A DNA stretch of 64,000 nucleotides, from contig JANJGN010000052.1 in the NCBI GenBank assembly GCA_026770705.1, positions 1,984,001 through 2,048,000 on the forward strand, in the 5' to 3' direction. The position numbers and the translations under genes were made by a program. The notes below the pieces were generated by a model. The model did no database searches and had not been told where the DNA came from. It was given only the letters and a program-made list of their open reading frames with translations. Positions 4,971 to 38,600 of this stretch are shown piece by piece. This DNA comes from Isurus oxyrinchus. Taxonomy: Eukaryota. Numbering within the stretch: the first letter of the stretch is position 1; each line of letters starts with the position of its first letter.

Positions 4971-5010
4971 ATGATCGGGAAATCCTACTTCCTCCTGTCA
5001 CTTCTCCAAG
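4971..5010 (+). CDS. Gene A leader exon (MIGKSYFLLSLLQ, phase 1); exon 4931-5010
   Basis: Acceptor ctttcacag (4930), ATG 4971, donor caag|gtaata; joined to V1 gives signal peptide MIGKSYFLLSLLQVGLSQ. Confidence 0.85.
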
Positions 5011-6049: not shown

Positions 6050-9000
6050 GTTGAATATTTGAGTCTCTAAAGTGTGGATTTAACCTTCTGGTACACCCAG
6101 ATCTTGTGCTGGTTACCTTGTCTGGAGGTGTCTTTAACTGCTCACAGTGATCTGTGGGATTGTCACCCTTGGATGTTGTTCCTGATTTCATGTGGGATCT
6201 TCTCCTCGATGGAATAGGAGCGGGAATGGATCTGATTTATCCTCAGTTCCGCCTCACCGCTGTGCCCTTGTGTGTTTGACTCCATAGGCCCTTGGTTCTG
6301 AACAAATCCTTGTCACCTCGGCTGGTGATCATGAACCTTCTGTGGGATCCTGGATGTGAACTTGTCCCAACTGTAAACTTGGCAACTGTGCACCTCCATT
6401 TTTATCATGAACATTCCTTATCTTCTCTTGTAGTTTTAAAAGTTGCCCTCTGGTTTCTGAGAGAGTAGAATGGGTAAGAATAGCGAAATTGGTCACTACT
6501 GGCCCACCAAACATGATCTCTGTCAGTGATGCAATAAGGTGAGGTGATGGTGTAGTGGTATTGTTGCTGGACGAGTAATTCAGAGACCCAGGGTAATGTC
6601 CTGAAAATATGAGTTCAAATCCTGTCATAATAGATGATGGAATTTGAATTTAATAAAAAGATGAAATTCAAAGTCTAGTGATGACCACAAAACCATTGTT
6701 GGAAATCCCACCTGGTTCACCAGTGCCCTTTAGGGAACAAAATTGCCTGGCCGACATGTGACTCCAGACTCCACGTCAATGTGGTTGACTCTTACATTAG
6801 GGATGGGTAATAAATCCTGGCCTGACCAGTGACTCCCACATCCCATGAATGAATTTAACAAAGTTGCAGTTGTAGGTGTTGATCTCAGATGTAACATTGC
6901 AATGTGTGGATCTTGCTTGGTCTGTCTACATTTGAGAATTAGGGATTTCACTGGTGTGAATCATTCATTCAGCTAGGCCGTTAGATCTGGGGTAATGAGG
7001 AGAAGAAGTTGTGTGATTGATATTCCAGATTATATGTACTCATGTCCCTAGGCTCACCAAATAAACTGAAAATAGTGCTTAGAATGTGTGCACCAGTAGT
7101 GCTCGGTGTGTTGTGTTATTTTTGAATAACGGGATATCTGGTAAAGCTGTCGACGATGACGATGAAGTCAGTGACATGGACATGAAAGGATTCAGATGTG
7201 AATTTGGACTAAGAATAGGCAGGAATTTCCTGTGGAATCAGTGGTTCTTTGTGTTGACTTGGCTCATCCTCTTGACAAGCCTCGAACTTCCCTACAACGA
7301 CTTCAAGGTCATTGTTCATACCCGGCCAGTGACTGTATCTCTTGTGAGTCTCCCTGTCTGATCTGTGCCCATGTGTGAGGGATGAAGTTGTTGAAGAATA
7401 TATCATCACAAAGGTTCTGGTATGATGCGATGCCTGCCATTAAAAATGACTCCCTGGGAGATGCCTCACTTATCCTGATGACATCAAGTTGAATCAGCCA
7501 CCCTTTCAATGATATTTCCACAGTTCCTGTAGAATTTTTCACTGTTCCCTCTTGTAGCTGCTGGCATTTCTGTTGTGCTAAATGTACTGGATCAATTGAC
7601 AGACTTGCATTCTCCTGCAGGTGTAATGTTGCAGCTCCCTTGAAACTACAAATACTGTTGAAACTTTCTGCATATTTCAATGTTATGTCCATGAACTGAG
7701 TTGATGGGGTAGTTTCTGAGGTTGACCCATGTCAGGTCTGACAGATTCCATGGATAGTCACTAGTGTGAGGTCACCGCATGCCGGTAGACTTGCAATTGC
7801 TCAGCCTTTAGTCTCCACAATGTAGAACATCTGTGACACCCAGGAGGATTGATTGTACTTGCACCCCAGGACTATGTATTCCGCACATGGAGTTGGTGAA
7901 GTGTTGTACACAGCAGTAGGTTTCCCCATGGACTTCCATGTCCTTGGATATATGTCTTTGAAAATTTGCTGGGGTGGGCTGGGGGAGGGGAATGTTGGCA
8001 CTTGCCCTTGTGTCACTCTTGGCCAATAAAGGGGAGGTAGCCACTTTCTCAGGGCAGATAATTGGAATCTTGGCCAATAGTGCGGGTGATGTGACAGCAT
8101 CTGTTCTCCGTGAGATCGATGGTGTAAAAGGTGTGAAATTGTTCAACAATTGCACAAAACGTTGAGCACAAATGTTGCACAAACTCTAAGCCGGGGTTTT
8201 CCGGCCCGGTCATGGTGGGACCTGCCTTGGGAGATTGGGACAAATATAAATCCATTGGCTTTCGGCCGGACCGGACAATCCTGGCAGTGGGTGGGGCCAG
8301 AAAATCCTACCACTATGGGACATTTTCAGTTTATTTGATGTGCCCAGAGAGATCACTAAGGACAACAATCCACAATTTATTGACAAGCCACGACAGGATA
8401 TGTGTGAGAGGTGGAATATCGATCACCGCACCTCGTCTCGCCGTGCACATCATCGCCATTTCCTGGTTTGTCAGTCACCACATGTATATGTTCCTGATGG
8501 GATAGCGGATGGTCATTCTTATTGATTGAAGGTTCCCCGTTGTGTAGGGTCTGTTTGGATCAGCGCACGGCTCTTTGCAGCTGCATCAGCCTTTGCTCTA
8601 GTGCTCTGCCGCTGTCACTGGCCCTTTCTGCCACAAGCCTTGCAGGATTGGTGGAAAGCTGGGCATTTCCTTGGTGCCTGCAGAAGGCCACACCTTCCAC
8701 ACGTCTCACTAGGTTTGGATGTTCTAGTGAGTGTGTCAACAATTGATGTTGTACTGAGGACCTGTAAGCTTCGTTGACCTGCGAGGATCACTTCGTATTT
8801 ATGTCCATCCTTGAGTAGCTCTTCAATGCTATAGGTTTTGGTCTTATCTAGCAGATCTTTCTGGAAGGCTTCCATGGGAGTGGATGCGATCACCAACTCA
8901 ACAACTGTGTCTGCAGGCTCTGTGTTTGAAATCACAGTGCGTACCCTTTTCTCTACATCGGCTGATGAAGTGGTCTATGGATTGTGTAGGCTGATGAAAT

Positions 9001-12740: not shown

Positions 12741-13115
12741 TTGGACTATCACAAGTGTGGAAAGGTGACACTCCAGGAGAGGTGACAGCGCAGGAAGGTT
12801 CGTGTGTACAGATTCCATGTAATTACAGTTATCCATCATATTTAGTAGCGAGATCACCAGTCGGAATCTGGTATATGAGAAGGAATTGGGAAAAATGGAA
12901 TGAACGGTCTATAGCCTTTCACTCCAAGGATCATAATCGCGAGTTACCACAGTTCCACCATCGGACCCAGCTGTCTGGAGACCTGAAAGATGGCGACTGT
13001 TCCCTGATTATAAACAACATCAGACGGGAAGATGCAGGATATTATTTATTCAGCCTAGAATTTGACAACAGGAATAGATACAACGACCGTCCTGAAACCC
13101 AGCTTCACGTTTCTG
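12741..13115 (+). CDS. Gene A Siglec V-set exon V1 (essential Arg replaced by Ser)
   Basis: Acceptor ctctccctag, donor tctg|gtaag, 375 nt phase 1-1; Siglec cysteine pattern EGSCVQIPC...DGDCSL; F strand DAGYYLFSLE. Confidence 0.9.
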
Positions 13116-13329
13116 GTAAGTGCTGTGTTATAATTACTCAACAATTCACATCCAACACTCAATTGGAAATAATAGTGTTTGATTTGCTTGTTTTTTGGCC
13201 GTGTTAACCAGCGCCACTATTTTTAATGATTTGTCTATTTCTGCTCCCAGATCCATGAGCTTATTGTGTGTGATTGAATCCACATCATAGCTGTAACATA
13301 AACCGAGCTGAGGGGTGATGACACCTCCC

Positions 13330-14340
13330 CCCTGAGTGAAGTATCTCCTCCCCACTACACCTTCCACCCCTCACACTGTCCGTGTAAACCCCCGTCCCAT
13401 CTCCAGCCTCTCTTTCCCCTCCAAAGTCCTGCAACCTGTTTCCATCTCCCGAATCTGTTCCCATCTTTCCCGGAACTCCATGTTTGAATCCCTCCAATCA
13501 GGTTCCCACCCCAGCCACTGTGCTGAAACAGCTCTTATCAAGGTCACAAATGGCATCCTGTGTGACTGTGACAAAGGTCAACTTTCCCTCCTCGTCCTTC
13601 TCGATCTGTCTGCAGCCTTTGACACGCTCGACCACACCATCCTCCTCCAACACCTCTCCACTGTGGTCCAGCTGGGTGGGACTGCTCTCCCCTGGCTCCA
13701 TTCTTATCCATCTCATCGTAGCCAGAGAATCACTTGCAATGGCTTTGCAGCATCATCTGAACAGTGTTAGTTTTCACCTGTCCACTGAGGATCCCCAGCT
13801 CTACCTCACCACCACCTCTCTCGACTCCTCCACTGCTGCTAAATTATCAGGCTGCTTATCCGACATCCAGTACTGGATGGGCAGAAATTCCCTCCAATTA
13901 AATATTGGAAAGACTGAAGCCATTGTCTTCATTCCCCGCTCCAAACTCTGTTCCCTCGCTACCAACTCCATTCCTCTCCCTGGCAGCTCTCTGAGATTGA
14001 AGCCAATCTGTTCACAGCTTTGTTGTCCCATTTGATCCTGAGATGAGCTTCCGGCCTCCTATCTGCGCCCTCACTAACACCGTCTATTTCCACCTCCGTA
14101 ACATCGCACGACGTCACCCTGTCTCAGCTCATCTGCTGCTGAAACCCTCATCCACGCCTTCATTACCTCCAGTCTCGACTGTTCCAACACACGCTCTACA
14201 CTCCATAAACTTGAGGCCATCCAAAACTGCTGACCACGTCCTTACTCACACCAAGTCCCGTTCCCTTATCACCCGCTCTGCTCGATGACCGAGACTGGCT
14301 CCTGGTCAAGCAAAATGTCAACGTCCAAATTTTCATCTTT
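13330..14340 (+). mobile_element. L2-type LINE reverse-transcriptase fragment
   Basis: LLVLLDLSAAFDT, DPQLY, LQLNIGKTEAI motifs across frameshifted ORFs 13336-14288. Confidence 0.85.
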
Positions 14341-14349
14341 GTTTCCTCA

Positions 14350-14790
14350 CTATCCCTGTAATCTTCTCGTCCTCCTCCAGTACCTACAACCATCCCATTC
14401 TCTGTAACCTCTTCAAGCCTCTACCGCTTCCCTATATCTGTAAATTCATCCTGCCCAACAAACCTACCAATCTCTGCAACCTCCTCCAGCCACTACAAAC
14501 CTCCCTATTTCTGTAACTTCCTCCTGCCCCTAAAAGCTTCCCTATCTCTGTAGCCTGCTCCAGTCCCGACAACTTTCCCTGCCCCTGTAACCTGCCCCAG
14601 TCACTACAACCCTCCCTACCTCTGCAAACTCCTCCAGACCCTACACTCTCCCAATCTCTCTTAACTTTTCCAGCCCCTACAAACCTCCCTATCGCTATAA
14701 CTCCTCCAATCACTACAAACCTCGCTATCTCTGTAACCTCCTCCAGCCCCTACAACCCTCCCTATCTCTGTAACCTCCTCCAGACCCACC
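14350..14790. repeat. 37-bp minisatellite (tatctctgtaacctcctccagcccctacaaccctccc)
   Basis: Same unit at 32150-33005 (hepcidin intron 1), 35620-36235 and 62790-63150. Confidence 0.85.
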
Positions 14791-15214
14791 AACCTTCAGA
14801 GGTCTCTGCGCTCCTCCAATTCCAGCCTCTTGACCATCCCCCGATCTCAACACTCTAACATCGGTGGCCATGCCTTCAGCTGCCTGGGGACCGAGCTCCG
14901 TAATACCCTCCCTTAAGCCCTCTCCATCCCTCACACTCACTCTCTCTCTCTCACTAACCATTTCATCCCTCTTTTAAGTTTCTCCATAACACCGATCCCT
15001 TCTGGTCAGCTGTCGCTAATATCTCCACATGTGTCTGCGTGACATACTTTGTTTTATGACGCTCCTGTGTAGCACCTTGGGGTGATTTGTCATGTTAAAG
15101 TTGTTGTGAAAATATAAGTTGTTGCCCTTTGACCCTCGACCCCAGATTGAGTCTTATTTTTGAGGGAATGTACAACCTGCTTAGATTTCTGACCAAAGTG
15201 TCATTTGATTATTT

Positions 15215-15600
15215 TTATTGAGCGAATGACAAGCCCCGATACCGAGCGAGAGCCTCCTCATTTGCTGAGTTTAAGGTGATGAGTCAGCCCCTTAGTCCGT
15301 AGAGGGGATTCTCCTCGGTAATGTACAGCCTTGTTTGTGTCTCTCCACAAGCGCATGAGGGGTTTGTACAGAGGCTGCAGCGCTGGAGGGGGTCTGCACA
15401 GGGGTCCTGGCCTGTCCTGAGCCGGTTTTAGCAAGGACCACTCTGGCCTTGGCAGCTGAAAGCCAGCCATTGGACAGACAGGGCCTGTCACAAGGAGCCT
15501 GTTAGTCACTCCCCCCCGTGTCTCCTGTGCTCGGATCCAGACCATGTTCGCTGGTGGATCTGGCTCAGGAAGGGTCCTCCCCATGGGACCCCCAGATGGA
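15215..15600 (-). mobile_element. Ingi/Vingi (I-clade) LINE 3' fragment, duplicated at about 17515-17900
   Basis: Frameshifted GFQLPRPEWSLL...LQRCSLCTNPSCACGETQT...ITEENP resembles the C-terminal Cys-rich domain of I-group LINEs. Confidence 0.55.
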
Positions 15601-15669
15601 AGGTGGGTCGAGCGGGTCAGTCACTTGCATGTTTATTCTGCAGCTTTAATATTTTAAGAAGGTAAGAAT

Positions 15670-16460
15670 GTAGGAACATAAGAAATAGGGACAGGAGCAG
15701 GCCATTCGGCCCCTCGAGCCTGCCCTCGCTGATCTGGTTGTGGCCTTAACTCCATTTTCCTGCCTGTCCCCCAAACCCTTGACTCCCTTGTCGATCAAAA
15801 ACCTGCCTCACTCAGCCTTGAGTCTATTCAATGGCCCAGCCTCCACTGCTCTCTGGGGAAGGGAATTCCACAGGCTAGCGCCCCTCTGAGAGAGGAAATT
15901 CCTCCTCATCTCAGTCTTAAATGGGAGAGTCCTCATTCCGAAACTGTGCTCCCTGGTTCTAGATTCCCCCACGAGGGGGAAACATCCTCCCAGCATCCAC
16001 CCTGTCAAGCCCCCTCGGAATTGGATATGTTTCAATAAGGTCACCCCTCATTCTTCTAAACTCCAATGGATACAGGCCCAACCTGCTCAACATTTCCTCA
16101 CAGGACAAACCCTTTAATCCCAGGAATCAGCCCAGTGAAGCTTCTCTGAACTGCCTGTACACAATGATCCTGTTACAATCTCACTAACGCCCTGTGCAGC
16201 TGTTGCAAGACTTCCCTCCTTTTATACTCCATCCCTTTGCAATAAAGGCCAACATTCCACTTGCCTTCCTCATTCTGTGGTGTTCCTGAATGCTGACTTT
16301 CTGTGATTCATGTACAAGGACACCCAGATCCCTCTGTACTGCATTCTGCAGCCTGTCTCCAGTTAAATAATATTCTGATTTTCTATTCTTCCTGCCAAAA
16401 TAATTTGTTGCCATTCTCCTCAGTATTGACCATCCCCCCAATTCAGCCTCATCTGTAAAT
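15670..16460 (-). mobile_element. CR1 LINE 3' fragment (copy at about 17970-18760)
   Basis: RDLGVLVHES and FKTEMRRNFLSQR...LWNSLPQRAVEA motifs; taagaatgtaggaacataagaa tail. Confidence 0.85.
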
Positions 16461-16519
16461 TTTGAGTCTAGTGGATCCACAAGCCATCCAGAGATAAATA
16501 TTGAGATTTCTCTCCCCAG

Positions 16520-16888
16520 TTGGACTGTCACAAGAGTGGAAAGGTGACACTCCACGAGAGGTGACAGCTCAGGAAGGTTCCTGTGTACAGATTCCATGTC
16601 ATTACAGTTATCCATCGTGTCTGGAAAACCAACCGCGAGGTGGACTCTGGTTTAATAATGAGAAACAGATTCCCTGGGCTCCCATTGCCTTTCACTCCAA
16701 GGATCACAGTCACGAGTTACCACGGTTCCGCCATCGGACCCGGCTGTCTGGAGACCTGAAAGATGGCGACTGTTCCCTGATTATAAACAACATCAGACGG
16801 GAAGATGCAGGACCTTATTTTTTCAGGATAGAATTTGACAATGGTCCGAGCCATAACTATTACCCTGTAACCCAGCTTCACGTTTCTG
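16520..16888 (+). CDS. Gene A Siglec V-set exon V2 (essential Arg present)
   Basis: Acceptor ctccccag, donor tctg|gtaag, 369 nt phase 1-1; DAGPYFFRIE with Arg codon AGG at 16825-16827. Confidence 0.92.
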
Positions 16889-18818
16889 GTAAGTGCTGTG
16901 TTATAATTACTCAACAATTCACATTCAACACTCAATGGGAAATAACACAATCTGTGACGTTTACATATTAACACAAAACACAGGTTATTATAACACACTG
17001 TCTGATTCTCAATAACCTGGTGATAGCTTCCAGTTCAGTCCTAAAACAACCTCTAATACTCACTTTAATATCAATGATTAAATGTGTTGACTGTGTCTAT
17101 CAATGTTATCAGTTTATCCACTCCCATCAATCTCTCAAATCCTGTCTTGAAGTCTGACATATCGACAGAAGAAAGATTTACATTTCTACAGCGCCTTTCA
17201 CCACCCTAGAGTTCCTACCCTAAATCTCTCCCTCTCCCTCTTCCTCTCCCTCTCTCTCTCTCTCTGTCTCTTTATCTCTGTCTCTCCATAACACCGACCT
17301 CTTCTGGTCAGCTGTCGCTAATATCTACACGTGTCTGGGTGACATACTTTGTTTTATGACGCTCCTGTGTAGCACCTTGGGGTGATTTGTCATGTTAAAG
17401 TTGTTGTGTAAATATAAGTTGTTGCCCTTTGACTCTCGACCCCAGATCGAGTCTTATTTTTGAGGGAATGTACAACCTCCTTAGATTTCTGACCAAAATG
17501 TCATTTGATTATTTTTATTGAGCGAATGCCAAGCCCCGATACCGAGCGAGAGCCTCCTCATTTGCCGAGTTTAGGGTGATGAGTCAGCACCTTAGTCTGT
17601 AGAGGGGATTCTCCTCGGTAATGTACAGCCTTGTTTGTGTCTCTCCACAAGCGCATGAGGGGTTTGTACAGAGGCTGCAGCGCTGGAGGGGGTCTGCACA
17701 GGGGTCCTGGCCTGTCCTGAGCCGGTTTTAACAAGGACCACTCTGGCCTTGGCAGCTGAAAGCCAGCCATTGGACAGACGGGGCCTGTCACAAGGAGCCT
17801 GTTAGTCACTCCCCCCAGTGTCTCCTGTGCTCAGATCTAGACCATGTTGGCTGGTGGATCTGGCTCAGGAAGGGTCCTCCCCATGGGACCCCCAGATGGA
17901 AGGTGGGTCGAGCGGGTCAGTCACTTGCATGTTTATTCTGCAGCTTTAATATTTTAAGATGGTAAGAATGTAGGAACATAAGAAACAGGGACAGGAGCAG
18001 GCCATTCGGCCCCTCGAGCATGCTCTCACTGATCTGGTTGTTGCCTTAACTCCATTTTCCTGCCTGTCCCCCAAACCCTTGACTCCCTTGTCGATCAAAA
18101 ACCTGCCTCACTCAGCCTTGAGTCTATTCAATGGCCCAGCCTCCACTGCTCTCTGGGGAAGAGAATTCCACAGGCTAGCGCCCCTCTGAGAGAGGAAATT
18201 CCTCCTCATCTCAGTCTTAAATGGGAGAGCACTCATTCCAAAACTGTGCTCCCTGGTTCTAGATTCCCCCACGAGGGGGAAACATCCTCCCAGCATCCAC
18301 CCTGTCAAGCCCCCTCGGAATCGGATATGTTTCAGTAAGGTCAGCCCTCATTCTTCTAAACTCCAATGGATACAGGCCCAACCTGCTCAACATTTCCTCA
18401 CAGGACAAACCCTTTAATCCCAGGAATCAGCCCAGTGTAGCTTCTCTGAACTGCCTGCACACAATGATCCTGTTAAAATCTCACTAACGCCCTGTGCAGC
18501 TGTTGCAAGACTTCCCTCCTTTTATACTCCATCCCTTTGCAATAAAGGCCAACATTCCACTTGCCTTCCTCATTCCATGGTTTTCCTGAATGCTGACTTT
18601 CTGTGATTCATGTACAAGGACACCCAGATCCCTCTGTACTGCATTCTGCAGCCTGTCTCCAGTTAAATAATATTCTGATTTTCTATTCTTCCTGCCAAAA
18701 TAATTTGTTGCCATTCTCCTCAGTATTGACCATCCCCCAATTCAGCCTCATCTGTAAATTTTGAGTCTAGTGGATCCACAAGCCATCCAGAGATAAATAT
18801 TGAGATTTCTCTCCCCAG

Positions 18819-19187
18819 TTGGACTGTCACAAGAGTGGAAAGGTGACACTCCACGAGAGGTGACAGCTCAGGAAGGTTCCTGTGTACAGATTCCATGTCA
18901 TTACAGTTATCCATCGTGTCTGGAAAACCAACCGCGAGGTGGAGTCTGGTTTAATAATGAGAAACAGATTCCCTGGGCTCCCATTGCCTTTCACTCCAAG
19001 GATCACAGTCACGAGTTACCACGGTTCCACCATCGGATCCGGCTGTCTGGAGACCTGAAAGATGGCGACTGTTCCCTGATTATAAACAACATCAGACGGG
19101 AAGATGCAGGACCTTATTTTTTCAGAATAGAATTTGACAATGGTCCGAGCCATAACTATTACCCTGTAACCCAGCTTCACGTTTCTG
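18819..19187 (+). CDS. Gene A Siglec V-set exon V3 (essential Arg present)
   Basis: Copy of V2, 369 nt, 3 amino-acid changes (L>V, R>H, T>I); Arg codon AGA at 19124-19126. Confidence 0.92.
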
Positions 19188-19654
19188 GTAAGTGCTGTGT
19201 TATAATTACTCAACAATTCACATTCAACACTCAATGGGAAATAACACAAACTGTGACGTTTACACATTAACACAAAACACAGGTTATTATAACACACTGT
19301 CTGATTCTCAATAACCTGATGATAGCTTCCAGTTCAGTCCTAAAGCAACCTCTAATACTTACTTTAATATCAATGATTAAATGTGTTGACTGTGTCTATC
19401 AATGTTATCAGTTTATCCACTCCCATCAATCTCTCAAATCCTGTCTTGAAGTCTGACATATCGACAGAAGAAAGATTTACATTTCTACAGCGCCTTTCAC
19501 CACCCTAGAGTTCCCACCCTAAACCTCTCCCTCTCCCTCTTCCTCTCCCTATCTCTCTCTCTCTCGCTGTGTCTCTCTGTCTCTTTCTCTCTGTCTTTCC
19601 ATAACACCGACCTCTTCTGGCCAGCTGTCACTAATATCTCCACATGTGTCACAG

Positions 19655-19942
19655 ATAAACCCACGATATTCCCTGCTGAAATTATTGCAGGAAAGCGTGT
19701 GGATGTAAGCTGCACCTTCAACACAACGTGCAATGGAACAGCAGCACCTGTCTTAACCTGGGACACTCCCACTGACGTACCTGGATCAGTCTCAAACACT
19801 GTAACTCAGCATGGTGTCACTCTGACCTATACTTCTGTTCTGACCCTGATCCCATCACTCAAACACCACGGACACAATCTCAGCTGCAGAGTGAGATATC
19901 CATCTGTTTCATCGGAGCGGACCCTCATTCTAACTGTGCAAG
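19655..19942 (+). CDS. Gene A first C2-set exon (Siglec domain-2 type)
   Basis: 288 nt phase 1-1: DKPTIFPAEIIAGKRVDVSCTFNTTCNGTAAPVLTW...SVLTLIPSLKHHGHNLSCRVRYP...LTVQ; extra Cys six residues after the B-strand Cys; donor caag|gtaag. Confidence 0.88.
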
Positions 19943-20265
19943 GTAAGAACGGACACCCTTCATTCTACATCAGCACTCCCTCAGCGCTGACCCTCTGACA
20001 GTGCAGCCCGTTCTCAGTGTCCACATTCTCATGCCTCTCAAAGTGCTTCACAGTCGATAGAAGTTAACTGATCTTTATTTGATTGTTGCTGAATGAAGAG
20101 ACAAGCTGTCTAAACTTTACATCTCACACACATTATTTTCCATGGCAACACCTCCTCCAATCAGAGACCACTTGCTGATTAACCAGCACTCTCTTCCCTT
20201 TAAATATAAATTGTTGTTCACTTTCTGTTGGTAAACCTGCAATCTGCCTTGTTGAGTCCGGTCCT

Positions 20266-20417
20266 GACATCTGAATATCACAATGAACAGAACAAGTTCC
20301 AACAATGAGCTGTGGTTGGTGATTCCTCACATTACATCCAGGGACACTGGAGACTATCAGTGTGCTCAGAGAATGAACATGGAGCAGTGGAGGGGTTCAT
20401 AACCATCACTGTGGAAC
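20266..20417 (+). pseudogene. Broken C2 pseudo-exon (3' half only) homologous to the module B C2 exons
   Basis: Matches 46497-46649 closely, but the 5' half and acceptor are replaced by unrelated sequence and there is a 1-nt deletion (tgtgctcagag vs tgtgtggcagag). Confidence 0.85.
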
Positions 20418-21531: not shown

Positions 21532-21671
21532 ACAGTGGAGGAGAGATTCTGCACGTGATCCTGATCCTGGGAATACGAGCTGTGATATTCCTTGTGGCTG
21601 TGGTTATCACTATCGCTGGAGTCTGTGTCTGGGAGAGACAAACAGTGAAAGGAAGTCGACAGACTGTTTGA
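21532..21671 (+). CDS. Gene A TM and short tail, activating type: (D)SGGEILHVILILGIRAVIFLVAVVITIAGVCVWERQTVKGSRQTV*
   Basis: Acceptor ttctttctgtgtgttctctag, phase 1; hydrophobic helix containing Arg (CGA 21576-21578); 12-residue tail with no Tyr; AATAAA at 22055-22060. Confidence 0.82.
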
Positions 21672-37249: not shown

Positions 37250-38310
37250 CAGTGAAACATTTCAGAGCAGCTGAGCTTGGTTTTCTGGAACCAGTCTCGG
37301 CCCAGAAGACTAGGGCCCTCACCTGTCGCTATGATCACTGGAAGCTGGGCTGTCTGCTGCCTGTAGGACACAGGTACTGGGATGAGGTCCTTTCCCTGTA
37401 TGGATTCTCCAGTGTGTGTCTTCAGCTGATCCATTGTTGGCTCTAAATTCAGCGTCTGGGTTCCTTCATTTAGCTGTTTAAATGTGGGCTCTTCCACCAC
37501 TGTGTCTGAGGCTCCCGTATCTGCCCCATTACTAGTGGCTGCCCATTCACTTGGGTTGTGATGGTTATAGGTTCAGTTTTTACCACTGTGACATTGGACA
37601 GGGAATAGACATCGGTATCAGCAGCTTCAGGCTCTGTGATATTATTCACTTCCATCATGTTGGTGCACTGCCTGATGGGCTGTCTCGATTTCACCCTGCA
37701 TTGCTTTATTACCCGCCCCTTTCTTGTGGCAGTGATGGCATTCTGCCCCCTTGAACCTGCAGGTGTCCAGTACGTGCTCAATGCCCCCCACATCGAGAAC
37801 AGGCCAACTTCGGAGTTGCTGCTGAAATACTCCCACGAAGCCTTTTAGTTTCTGGAGCGGCAGAGACTGTCTCTCGCTTGGCGGCTGTCTCTCTCTCTCT
37901 CTCTCTCTCCAGTTTGAGCCTCACGCCCGGTGGTTGGTTCCTGTCCCAGCTGAGGACTGGTGCCATGTTGTACATCCTGTAAATCCCGCCAGTCTCTCCC
38001 AGCACTTTCCATGCCTGGCGCTATTTCCATGGTGCGCTTCAAATCGATGTCGGCTTCTGCGAGTAAACGGCTCTGAATGGCGTTGGGGTGAACGACACAA
38101 ACCAATCGGCCCCGCAACATGTCATTGAGTGTGTCTCCGAGGTCCCAGTGCTCAGTCACCTGCTTCCACTTCACTGTATAGGTTGCGATGGACTCTCCCG
38201 GGGCCCTTACTCTGGAGTTAAACTTAAACCTTTTCATTATTACCCACGGCTTCAGCTGAAAATACATCTTCATGAGGTCGACTAATTGGTGAAAAGATTT
38301 AGAATTGGGT
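37250..38310 (-). mobile_element. Gypsy gag-protease fragment
   Basis: RFKFNSRVRAPGESIATY...NDMLRGRLV, CSRCGG/CHHCHKKG knuckles, EGPSLLGRDW. Confidence 0.85.
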
Positions 38311-38600
38311 GTAATACACGTCACTGTCTTCAGCTCTGAGACTGTCAATCCTCACCAAACAATTCTTCCCTTCCAAGTCGGCGATTATTTTAGCACGTCC
38401 CACGAATGTGGCCACCCCATAATTGGGATCTTTGGTGTATGTGATGGTATATTTCCATCTATACCAATATTTATACCAAGCTCCGTGCAGTGCTGTGTAA
38501 GAGTGGGAAGGCAAGTCAAAGCTACACGGAATAACCACACAAGAGCTGCTGATAGCCCTCCGAGGTAGCGCCTTCATAGACCATCCCTCTGACGTCACTC
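38311..38600 (-). pseudogene. Gene C MAG/sialoadhesin-like V-set exon, truncated in the F strand by fusion to Gypsy gag
   Basis: Acceptor tgcctttcag, SSCVVIPCSF...W...KNCL...EDSDVYY, then gag sequence (TPNSKSF) and a stop; essential Arg and donor are lost. Confidence 0.85.

What the first reader, a model, noticed from the sequence alone, without database searches (positions are those of the whole stretch)
12741..19942. Triple V-set Siglec in which V2 and V3 carry a B-C-loop Cys that could daisy-chain interdomain disulfides
Seen: one leader precedes three V exons. V2 and V3 have PCHYSYPSC (TGT at 16618 and 18917), where V1 has PCNYSYPSY (TAT); C2-1 has SCTFNTTC. Known: in Siglecs the Cys before the V B-strand (EGSC) bonds to a Cys in the B-C loop of the next domain. 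Inference: the extra Cys is present only in V domains that have a V above them, at about the equivalent position (+7 vs +6), suggesting V1-V2-V3-C2 disulfide chaining and a real multi-V receptor. Mammalian Siglecs normally have one V-set, and Siglec-12 has two.
Basis: inference. Interest (0 to 1): 0.72.

Follow-up and report, generated by a model that had tools for sequence, protein, structure and literature searches.

The report
Disulfide-chained multi-V shark Siglec receptor
A shark immune-receptor gene stacks three sugar-binding-type domains, and across sharks and rays an extra cysteine appears almost only in domains that have another one above them, so it likely staples each domain to the next, a link not seen in stacked relatives from other vertebrates.

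Summary
The gene reads leader-V1-V2-V3-C2-TM(Arg) in one open frame of 526 aa. V2 and V3 carry Cys at +7 from the B-strand Cys; V1 has Tyr. V2/V3 are one recent 2.3-kb duplication, so the window alone is a 1-versus-1 contrast, but the family supports the rule. In 1.66 Mb of the cluster (57 genes, 1-10 V each), the Cys is in 47 of 47 V exons that follow a V and 3 of 56 others, all three in stop-broken genes. In public shark and ray proteins it is in 38 of 49 versus 1 of 100. Cys-bearing V domains are not one clade. Distant tandem-V Siglec-like proteins lack it (0 of 28 at +7). V-to-V splice joints occur in RNA-type contigs of one sample. A predicted V-V pair superposes on Siglec V-C2 structures (3.6 A). 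The disulfide is inferred; no Cys-Cys distance was measured. This copy lost its natural C2 splice acceptor by a deletion, so 'triple' is a trimmed longer array of uncertain expression. The scan found the same Cys on other DNA of this genome (e1-9575185). New variant of CD33-type Siglecs.

The parts
4971..5010 (+). leader exon (ATG start; signal peptide finishes in the V1 exon)
   Evidence: matches N-termini of shark proteins; GT donor; leader-to-V joints in contigs of 4 of 4 runs
12741..13115 (+). V1 exon: A'-B Cys kept, Tyr at +7 (TAT 12839), Ser in place of the F-strand sialic-acid Arg
16520..16888 (+). V2 exon: A'-B Cys, B-C-loop Cys at +7 (TGT 16618), F-strand Arg present
18819..19187 (+). 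V3 exon: near-copy of V2 (4 nt differences), B-C-loop Cys (TGT 18917), Arg present
14918..19647 (+). 2.3-kb tandem unit (spacer plus V exon), two copies
   Evidence: 96% blastn over 2431 columns; 54 mismatches in global alignment
19600..19654 (+). deletion junction: inter-V spacer joined into the C2 exon; natural acceptor lost, cryptic in-frame AG at 19653-19654
   Evidence: only 1 such acceptor among the C2 exons of the 57 genes; exact junction at 6 places on 4 contigs; 19188-19650 is 95.5% identical to a V3-V4 spacer of the 7-V paralogue
19655..19942 (+). C2 exon with the canonical B-C-loop acceptor Cys at +6
   Evidence: aligns to the CD33 C2 Cys pair
20268..20416 (+). degenerate 3' half of a second C2 exon (remnant)
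   Evidence: split tblastn hit, consistent with a frameshift
21532..21671 (+). transmembrane exon with an intramembrane Arg, short tail and stop (activating type)
   Evidence: C2-to-TM loose end in X2; 96% to the TM of P0022/P0026

Best explanation
This is a member of a very large shark cluster of CD33-type Siglec-like receptor genes with 1-10 tandem V domains, in which the B-C-loop Cys of each inner V likely forms a disulfide with the A'-B Cys of the V above it, so that V1-V2-V3-C2 would be chained by three interdomain bonds. Shown: exon order and frame; the Cys pattern in this gene, in the cluster and in 11 other elasmobranch species; family-level V-to-V splicing in one sample. Established for Siglecs: the A'-B Cys bonds to the next domain (CD33 C36-C169, MAG C37-C165, Siglec-6 C46-C172), and when left free it makes disulfide-linked oligomers. 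Inferred: stacking V on V orphans that Cys, and elasmobranchs give it a partner at +7, which pairs all 14 ectodomain Cys (4 intra-, 3 interdomain bonds). The result would be a stiff stalk whose length changes by unequal crossing-over of a 2.0-2.3 kb unit, carrying a more variable top V (here without the key Arg) over conserved Arg-bearing inner V domains. Signalling would likely go through an adaptor via the TM Arg. This copy is likely a deletion derivative of a longer array and would need a cryptic C2 acceptor.
For: Cluster census: 103 of 106 V exons scorable; Cys in 47 of 47 V-after-V versus 3 of 56 others (genes 9 and 32 have a stop in V; gene 15 has a stop in C2). The A'-B Cys is kept in 103 of 103. 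Public proteins (155 V scored, 15 partial dropped): 38 of 49 V-after-V, versus 1 of 100 first V (P0033, a model without leader) and 0 of 6 others. The +7 column separates inner from other V best (0.86 vs 0.02; 12 of 12 species groups; next best column 0.50). It is the only column at 1.00 vs 0.00 within this genome (gene 15 left out). Inner V domains are about 95% identical to their nearest Cys-less paralogue here. One clade of Cys-bearing V is rejected (AU p 1.8e-9, 17 of 44 hand-picked rows, Cys column removed). Two distant tandem-V proteins instead lack the A'-B Cys in upper V domains and keep it above C2 (P0185, P0231). V-to-V joints in X2 and X3. The AF2 model of a relative's V1-V2 (pLDDT 88) superposes whole on Siglec-10 V-C2 (3.6 A, 208 residues), CD33 (4.7 A) and Siglec-5 (4.7 A), versus JAML 7.7 A and PD-L1 10.9 A. 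Known bonds: PMC6669322, PMC5150538, PMC10122656 (passages).
Against: No Cys-Cys distance was obtainable and there is no biochemical evidence. 11 of 49 inner V domains in public models lack the +7 Cys. Four ray domains among them have a Cys at +17, +18 or +22 instead. Distant tandem-V proteins mostly keep an apparently unpartnered A'-B Cys, so a partner is not required for such receptors. The AF2 geometry may be borrowed from Siglec structures it was trained on (pTM 0.67). The AU test rows were picked after a first tree was seen. The V-V joints come from one sample whose RNA status is a guess, and no contig spans V-V-V. No listed contig shows this copy's cryptic V-C2 joint; those listed use the natural acceptor (tables were cut).
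Confidence: 0.77

Rival explanations
1. The +7 Cys forms interchain disulfides (covalent dimers or lattices of multi-V receptors) rather than an intrachain V-V bond.
For: The B-C loop is exposed, and free Siglec Cys readily form interchain bonds (PMC6669322). Intrachain pairing was not measured.
Against: It does not explain why the Cys tracks 'a V above me' and is absent from intact single-V and top V domains. It would leave the upper A'-B Cys, kept in 103 of 103 exons, unpaired. The predicted geometry matches V-C2.
Confidence: 0.1
2. The Cys is a neutral marker inherited by one 'inner V' exon lineage and spread by tandem duplication.
For: All 47 codons here are TGT and 48 of 122 columns are also invariant among inner V. 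In most species inner V domains are closest to inner V of other species. Some inner V lack it.
Against: It is kept from rays to sharks on backbones that do not form one clade. No other column separates the classes as cleanly. In this genome the flanks are shared with Cys-less V domains.
Confidence: 0.07
3. The V exons are alternative cassettes, one V per mRNA.
For: V2/V3 of this copy start like a first V exon, so leader-to-V2 splicing is in frame. No full-length transcript was seen.
Against: V-to-V joints in contigs. About two thirds of inner V exons here start with E-P instead of G-L, never seen next to a leader. A leader-adjacent Cys-type V occurs only in broken genes.
Confidence: 0.04
4. 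V3 is an assembly duplication of V2.
For: The exons differ at only 4 nt, and the cluster is highly repetitive.
Against: 54 mismatches are spread along the 2.3-kb unit. Five other copies share the junction at 99-100% upstream identity for the four fetched, and their listed V hits show three V exons. Arrays of 6, 7 and 10 V exist nearby.
Confidence: 0.02

Closest known systems
CD33-related Siglecs (CD33, Siglec-5, -10) and MAG
   Same: Best PDB sequence matches (CD33 E 5e-26, MAG, Siglec-5). Same V-set Cys layout (A'-B Cys; B-E intrasheet pair), C2 B-C-loop Cys at +6 and F-strand Arg in V2/V3. V-V model fits their V-C2 geometry.
   Different: One V only in those; here 3 (family 1-10), with an acceptor-type Cys in a V domain. 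Several hundred leader copies in this assembly (561 matches). Sialic-acid binding is untested.
Primate Siglec-12/XII
   Same: Tandem V-set domains; loss of the Arg in the outer V (PMC6288428, passages).
   Different: Two V only. The unnamed protein that resembles it (P0195; identification recalled) has no B-C-loop Cys in V2. This gene has an activating-type TM.
Paired activating Siglecs (Siglec-14, -16)
   Same: Charged TM residue and short tail; ectodomains shared with inhibitory-type paralogues (multi-V genes: 9 with TM-Arg, 16 with the other TM class). Pairing and gene conversion as described in PMC13358205 (passages).
   Different: Adaptor not identified; V stacking absent there.
Distant tandem-V Siglec-like proteins (19 unnamed representatives, 2-7 V)
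   Same: Tandem V domains above a Siglec-type C2.
   Different: 0 of 28 scored inner V have Cys at +7 (one at +4); some lack the upper A'-B Cys instead.

Membership tests
Siglec (CD33-related type) | Type I membrane protein: leader, N-terminal V-set, C2-set, TM | tested here: met
   exon map and open frame; PDB matches
Siglec (CD33-related type) | V-set Cys layout: intrasheet B-E pair plus A'-B Cys | tested here: met
   Cys at -5, 0 and +58/+60 in all three V; align with CD33
Siglec (CD33-related type) | C2 B-C-loop Cys that accepts the interdomain bond | tested here: met
   C-x5-C in C2 aligns with CD33; the bond itself is not measured
Siglec (CD33-related type) | Essential F-strand Arg in the N-terminal V domain | tested here: not met
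   V1 has Ser; V2 and V3 have Arg. By the primate convention such an outer-Arg-less protein is 'Siglec-like'. 18 of 19 open single-V paralogues have Arg.
Siglec (CD33-related type) | Sialic-acid-dependent binding | not testable with these tools
   needs glycan array or cell binding
Siglec (CD33-related type) | Orthology or synteny with the mammalian CD33r cluster | not tested
   no synteny analysis done; similarity only
Activating paired Siglec | Basic TM residue, no ITIM tail | tested here: met
   Arg in TM and a stop 14 residues after the TM Cys
Activating paired Siglec | Association with an ITAM adaptor | not testable with these tools
   needs co-expression
Siglec-12 type (two V) | Exactly two V, inner V without B-C-loop Cys | tested here: not met
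   three V, inner ones with Cys

The most novel reading that the evidence does not exclude
Sharks and rays have a several-hundred-gene Siglec-type receptor system built from a self-chaining V module. Each added inner V brings both its own donor Cys and an acceptor Cys, so unequal crossing-over can lengthen or shorten a covalently stiffened, multivalent sialic-acid-binding rod (1-10 V) under a fast-diversifying top V, on either activating or inhibitory tails. No V-V interdomain disulfide of this kind turned up in my literature searches.
Probability: 0.55. Interest if true: 0.7.

Novelty: new variant of a known kind. Interest (0 to 1): 0.55.

Why it matters
It would extend the Siglec interdomain disulfide from V-C2 to V-V. 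It gives a residue-level explanation of how a lineage keeps stacking V domains without free thiols. It also exposes a very large, apparently undescribed paired-receptor cluster in cartilaginous fish whose V number varies 1-10. It is directly testable with one recombinant two-domain protein and offers a natural design for rigid multivalent Siglec fusions. It does not change how Siglecs are thought to bind or signal.

Tried and rejected
Complex prediction of V1 with V2 as separate chains gave no answer; it is not used either way. The first AF2 model (V-V-C2, pLDDT 71, pTM 0.48) was too weak at the linker. Neither model returned coordinates (none in the data folder), so SG-SG distances could not be measured. 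The first read-laying over 14 kb was swamped by repeats. A leader candidate at 6779 was rejected once the real leader at 4971 was found. My first deletion alignment against the 7-V paralogue's last intron was the wrong comparison; the inter-V spacer is the match. One search had the leader off by one base, corrected. Literature: 8 searches (Siglec with shark/cartilaginous fish; interdomain disulfide with V-set/Siglec-12; two V-set with cysteine; elasmobranch/chondrichthyan with CD33; SIGLEC12 with unpaired cysteine; shark gene cluster; teleost/Xenopus; MAG structure) found no description of this cluster or of a V-V disulfide. The library lacks most subscription papers, including the original Siglec-12 reports and fish Siglec surveys, and no supplements were read.
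Full report
Observation. The window is G000:C52:1984001-2048000 of a 4.98-Gb genome. Its closest named proteins are from lamniform sharks at 93-98%. The gene lies on the + strand: leader 4971-5010, V1 12741-13115, V2 16520-16888, V3 18819-19187, C2 19655-19942, TM/stop 21532-21671. The junctions are phase 1 with AG/GT ends, and the spliced frame is 526 aa without internal stops. TGT at 16618 and 18917 and TAT at 12839 are as reported. No other V, C2 or TM exon lies between the leader and V1. V2 and V3 sit in a 2.3-kb tandem unit with 54 mismatches, 4 of them in the exon. Within the window the contrast is therefore one event and proves little by itself.

Family census in this genome. A leader/donor pattern matches 561 places and a Cys-type V pattern 291 places (duplicated leaders, pseudogenes and possible haplotype duplicates included). 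I tiled 1.664 Mb of the 4.17-Mb contig C52 around the window. It holds 57 V-bearing genes with 106 V exons: 30 genes with one V, 19 with two, 5 with three, and one each with 6, 7 and 10 (the two- and three-V counts include two irregular genes with a C exon between V exons). 103 exons were scorable; 3 fragments were dropped. The +7 Cys is in 47 of 47 V exons that follow a V, and in 3 of 56 others. Two of those three have a stop in V, and the third has a stop at the C2 acceptor-Cys codon. All 103 keep the A'-B Cys. Top V domains of multi-V genes are the most variable (mean identity 0.76 versus 0.90 for inner V) and lack the F-strand Arg in 10 of 24, against 1 of 43 inner and 1 of 19 single V. 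V1 here has Ser.

Other elasmobranchs. Of 112 public protein models, 34 have more than one V. 155 V domains were scored and 15 partial ones dropped. The Cys is in 38 of 49 V-after-V, 1 of 100 first V, and 0 of 6 after a C domain or a gap. The one exception has no leader and starts like an inner exon. It occurs in 11 named species, sharks and rays. Eleven inner V domains lack it: four ray domains with a Cys at +17, +18 or +22, three in a 7-V model that looks like fused genes, and four others. Across 210 distinct V domains the +7 column is the best discriminator (0.86 versus 0.02; 12 of 12 species groups). A FastTree of 166 rows needs 7 changes (shuffled mean 41). With the Cys column removed, a single clade of Cys-bearing V is rejected on 44 hand-picked rows (p-AU 1.8e-9; rows chosen after seeing the first tree, few branches strongly supported). 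This fits a residue kept by position while flanks are exchanged, or repeated gain. It does not fit simple inheritance of one exon, although in most species inner V domains are still closest to inner V of other species.

Outside elasmobranchs. Of the best 150 representatives, 131 were new and 123 had a scorable V domain. 19 had tandem V. Of 28 scored inner V, none has Cys at +7 and one has Cys at +4. These proteins are unnamed; I take them as non-elasmobranch from their low identity (24-30% for the 11 aligned), and the likeness of P0195 to Siglec-12 is recalled. Tandem V is therefore not unique to sharks, but the acceptor Cys appears to be. P0185 and P0231 lack the A'-B Cys in upper V domains and keep it in the V above C2, the alternative fix. 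Most others keep it apparently unpaired, which shows a partner is not indispensable.

Transcripts. Contigs of four RNA-type runs (three samples) were laid on V3. They show leader-to-V joints in 4 of 4 and V-to-C2 joints at the natural acceptor in 3 of 4 (the fourth). They show V-to-V joints in X2 (129-nt contig, end of a divergent V joined to the start of another) and X3, which are one sample. A C2-to-TM joint is in X2. These belong to the family, cannot be assigned to this copy, and none spans three V.

Structure. Known bonds: CD33 C36-C169, with free C36 forming disulfide oligomers in the isolated V (PMC6669322, passages); MAG C37-C165 (PMC5150538, passages); Siglec-6 C46-C172 (PMC10122656, passages). 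The shark Cys align with those of CD33. An AF2 model of the V1-V2 part of P0017, the closest two-V relative, reached pLDDT 88 and pTM 0.67. It superposes over both domains on Siglec-10 V-C2 (3.6 A, 208 residues; released 2026), CD33 and Siglec-5 (4.7 A) and MAG (about 6 A), but less well on JAML (7.7 A), PD-L1 (10.9 A) and Fabs (13-17 A) (one search agrees, TM 0.67 to Siglec-10). That arrangement brings the upper A'-B turn to the lower B-C loop. The distance itself was not available, and the pose may echo Siglec structures in training. Donor-to-partner separations are 137, 135 and 127 residues. With three interdomain bonds all 14 ectodomain Cys are paired.

This copy. It is the only gene of the 57 whose C2 lacks the natural acceptor. 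Its V3-C2 intron is the start of an inter-V spacer (95.5% to the V3-V4 spacer of the 7-V paralogue, which is 97.8% identical over 13.9 kb from leader to V2) joined into the C2 exon. A deletion likely removed further V exons and the acceptor. The junction stands at 6 places on 4 contigs, so it is not a one-off error. The four other copies fetched have open last V and C2 exons. An in-frame AG remains with the same pyrimidine content as the natural site (0.6). Its use would shorten the V3-C2 linker by three residues. Skipping C2 would also stay in frame but leave the V3 A'-B Cys free. No listed contig shows the cryptic joint (tables cut), so expression of this copy is open; I put about one in three on it being impaired.

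Comparison and novelty. It works like a CD33-type, activating paired Siglec. As to membership, fold, Cys layout and architecture are met, the outer-domain Arg is not met, and binding is untested, so 'Siglec-like' is the safe name for this copy. Databases already label these models Siglec-12-like. Eight literature searches found no account of the cluster or of a V-V bond (listed under Tried and rejected). The whale shark genome paper mentions Siglecs once (PMC8455134, passage); PMC13358205 and PMC6288428 were seen as passages; other papers only as search listings. I had reached my reading before seeing it, and it is not independent evidence.

Verdict. New variant of a known kind; interest 0.55.

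Noticed in passing
window 38200-38560, minus strand (G000:C52:2022311-2022556): A divergent MAG/CD22-like V exon (about 30% to the cluster V), open over the domain but apparently without the F-strand Arg. It points away from a leaderless C-C-C-TM-tail run on the plus strand about 8 kb further on. The same opposed pair recurs several times in the tiled region.
   Followed up: partly
G000:C52:2271668-2301078 (minus): Gene with 10 tandem V exons on an inhibitory-type tail; the second V is broken and the first lacks its B-strand Cys.
   Followed up: partly
window 20155-20417 to 21532: An X17 contig joins the degenerate C2 remnant's donor to the TM exon, so the remnant is spliced in some paralogue.
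   Followed up: no
G000:C52:1584001-3248000: Constant-domain number also varies from 0 to about 12 per gene, leaders are often duplicated, and many activating-type single-V genes are broken: birth-and-death turnover.
   Followed up: partly
P0012, P0019 (rays): Four-V proteins whose V2 and V4 carry a Cys at +17, +18 or +22 rather than +7; every inner V still has exactly one extra Cys. Partner unknown.
   Followed up: no
window 12839-13060 and paralogues: Top V domains of multi-V genes lose the sialic-acid Arg in 10 of 24 while inner V keep it in 42 of 43; ligand recognition may have shifted in the top domain.
   Followed up: partly
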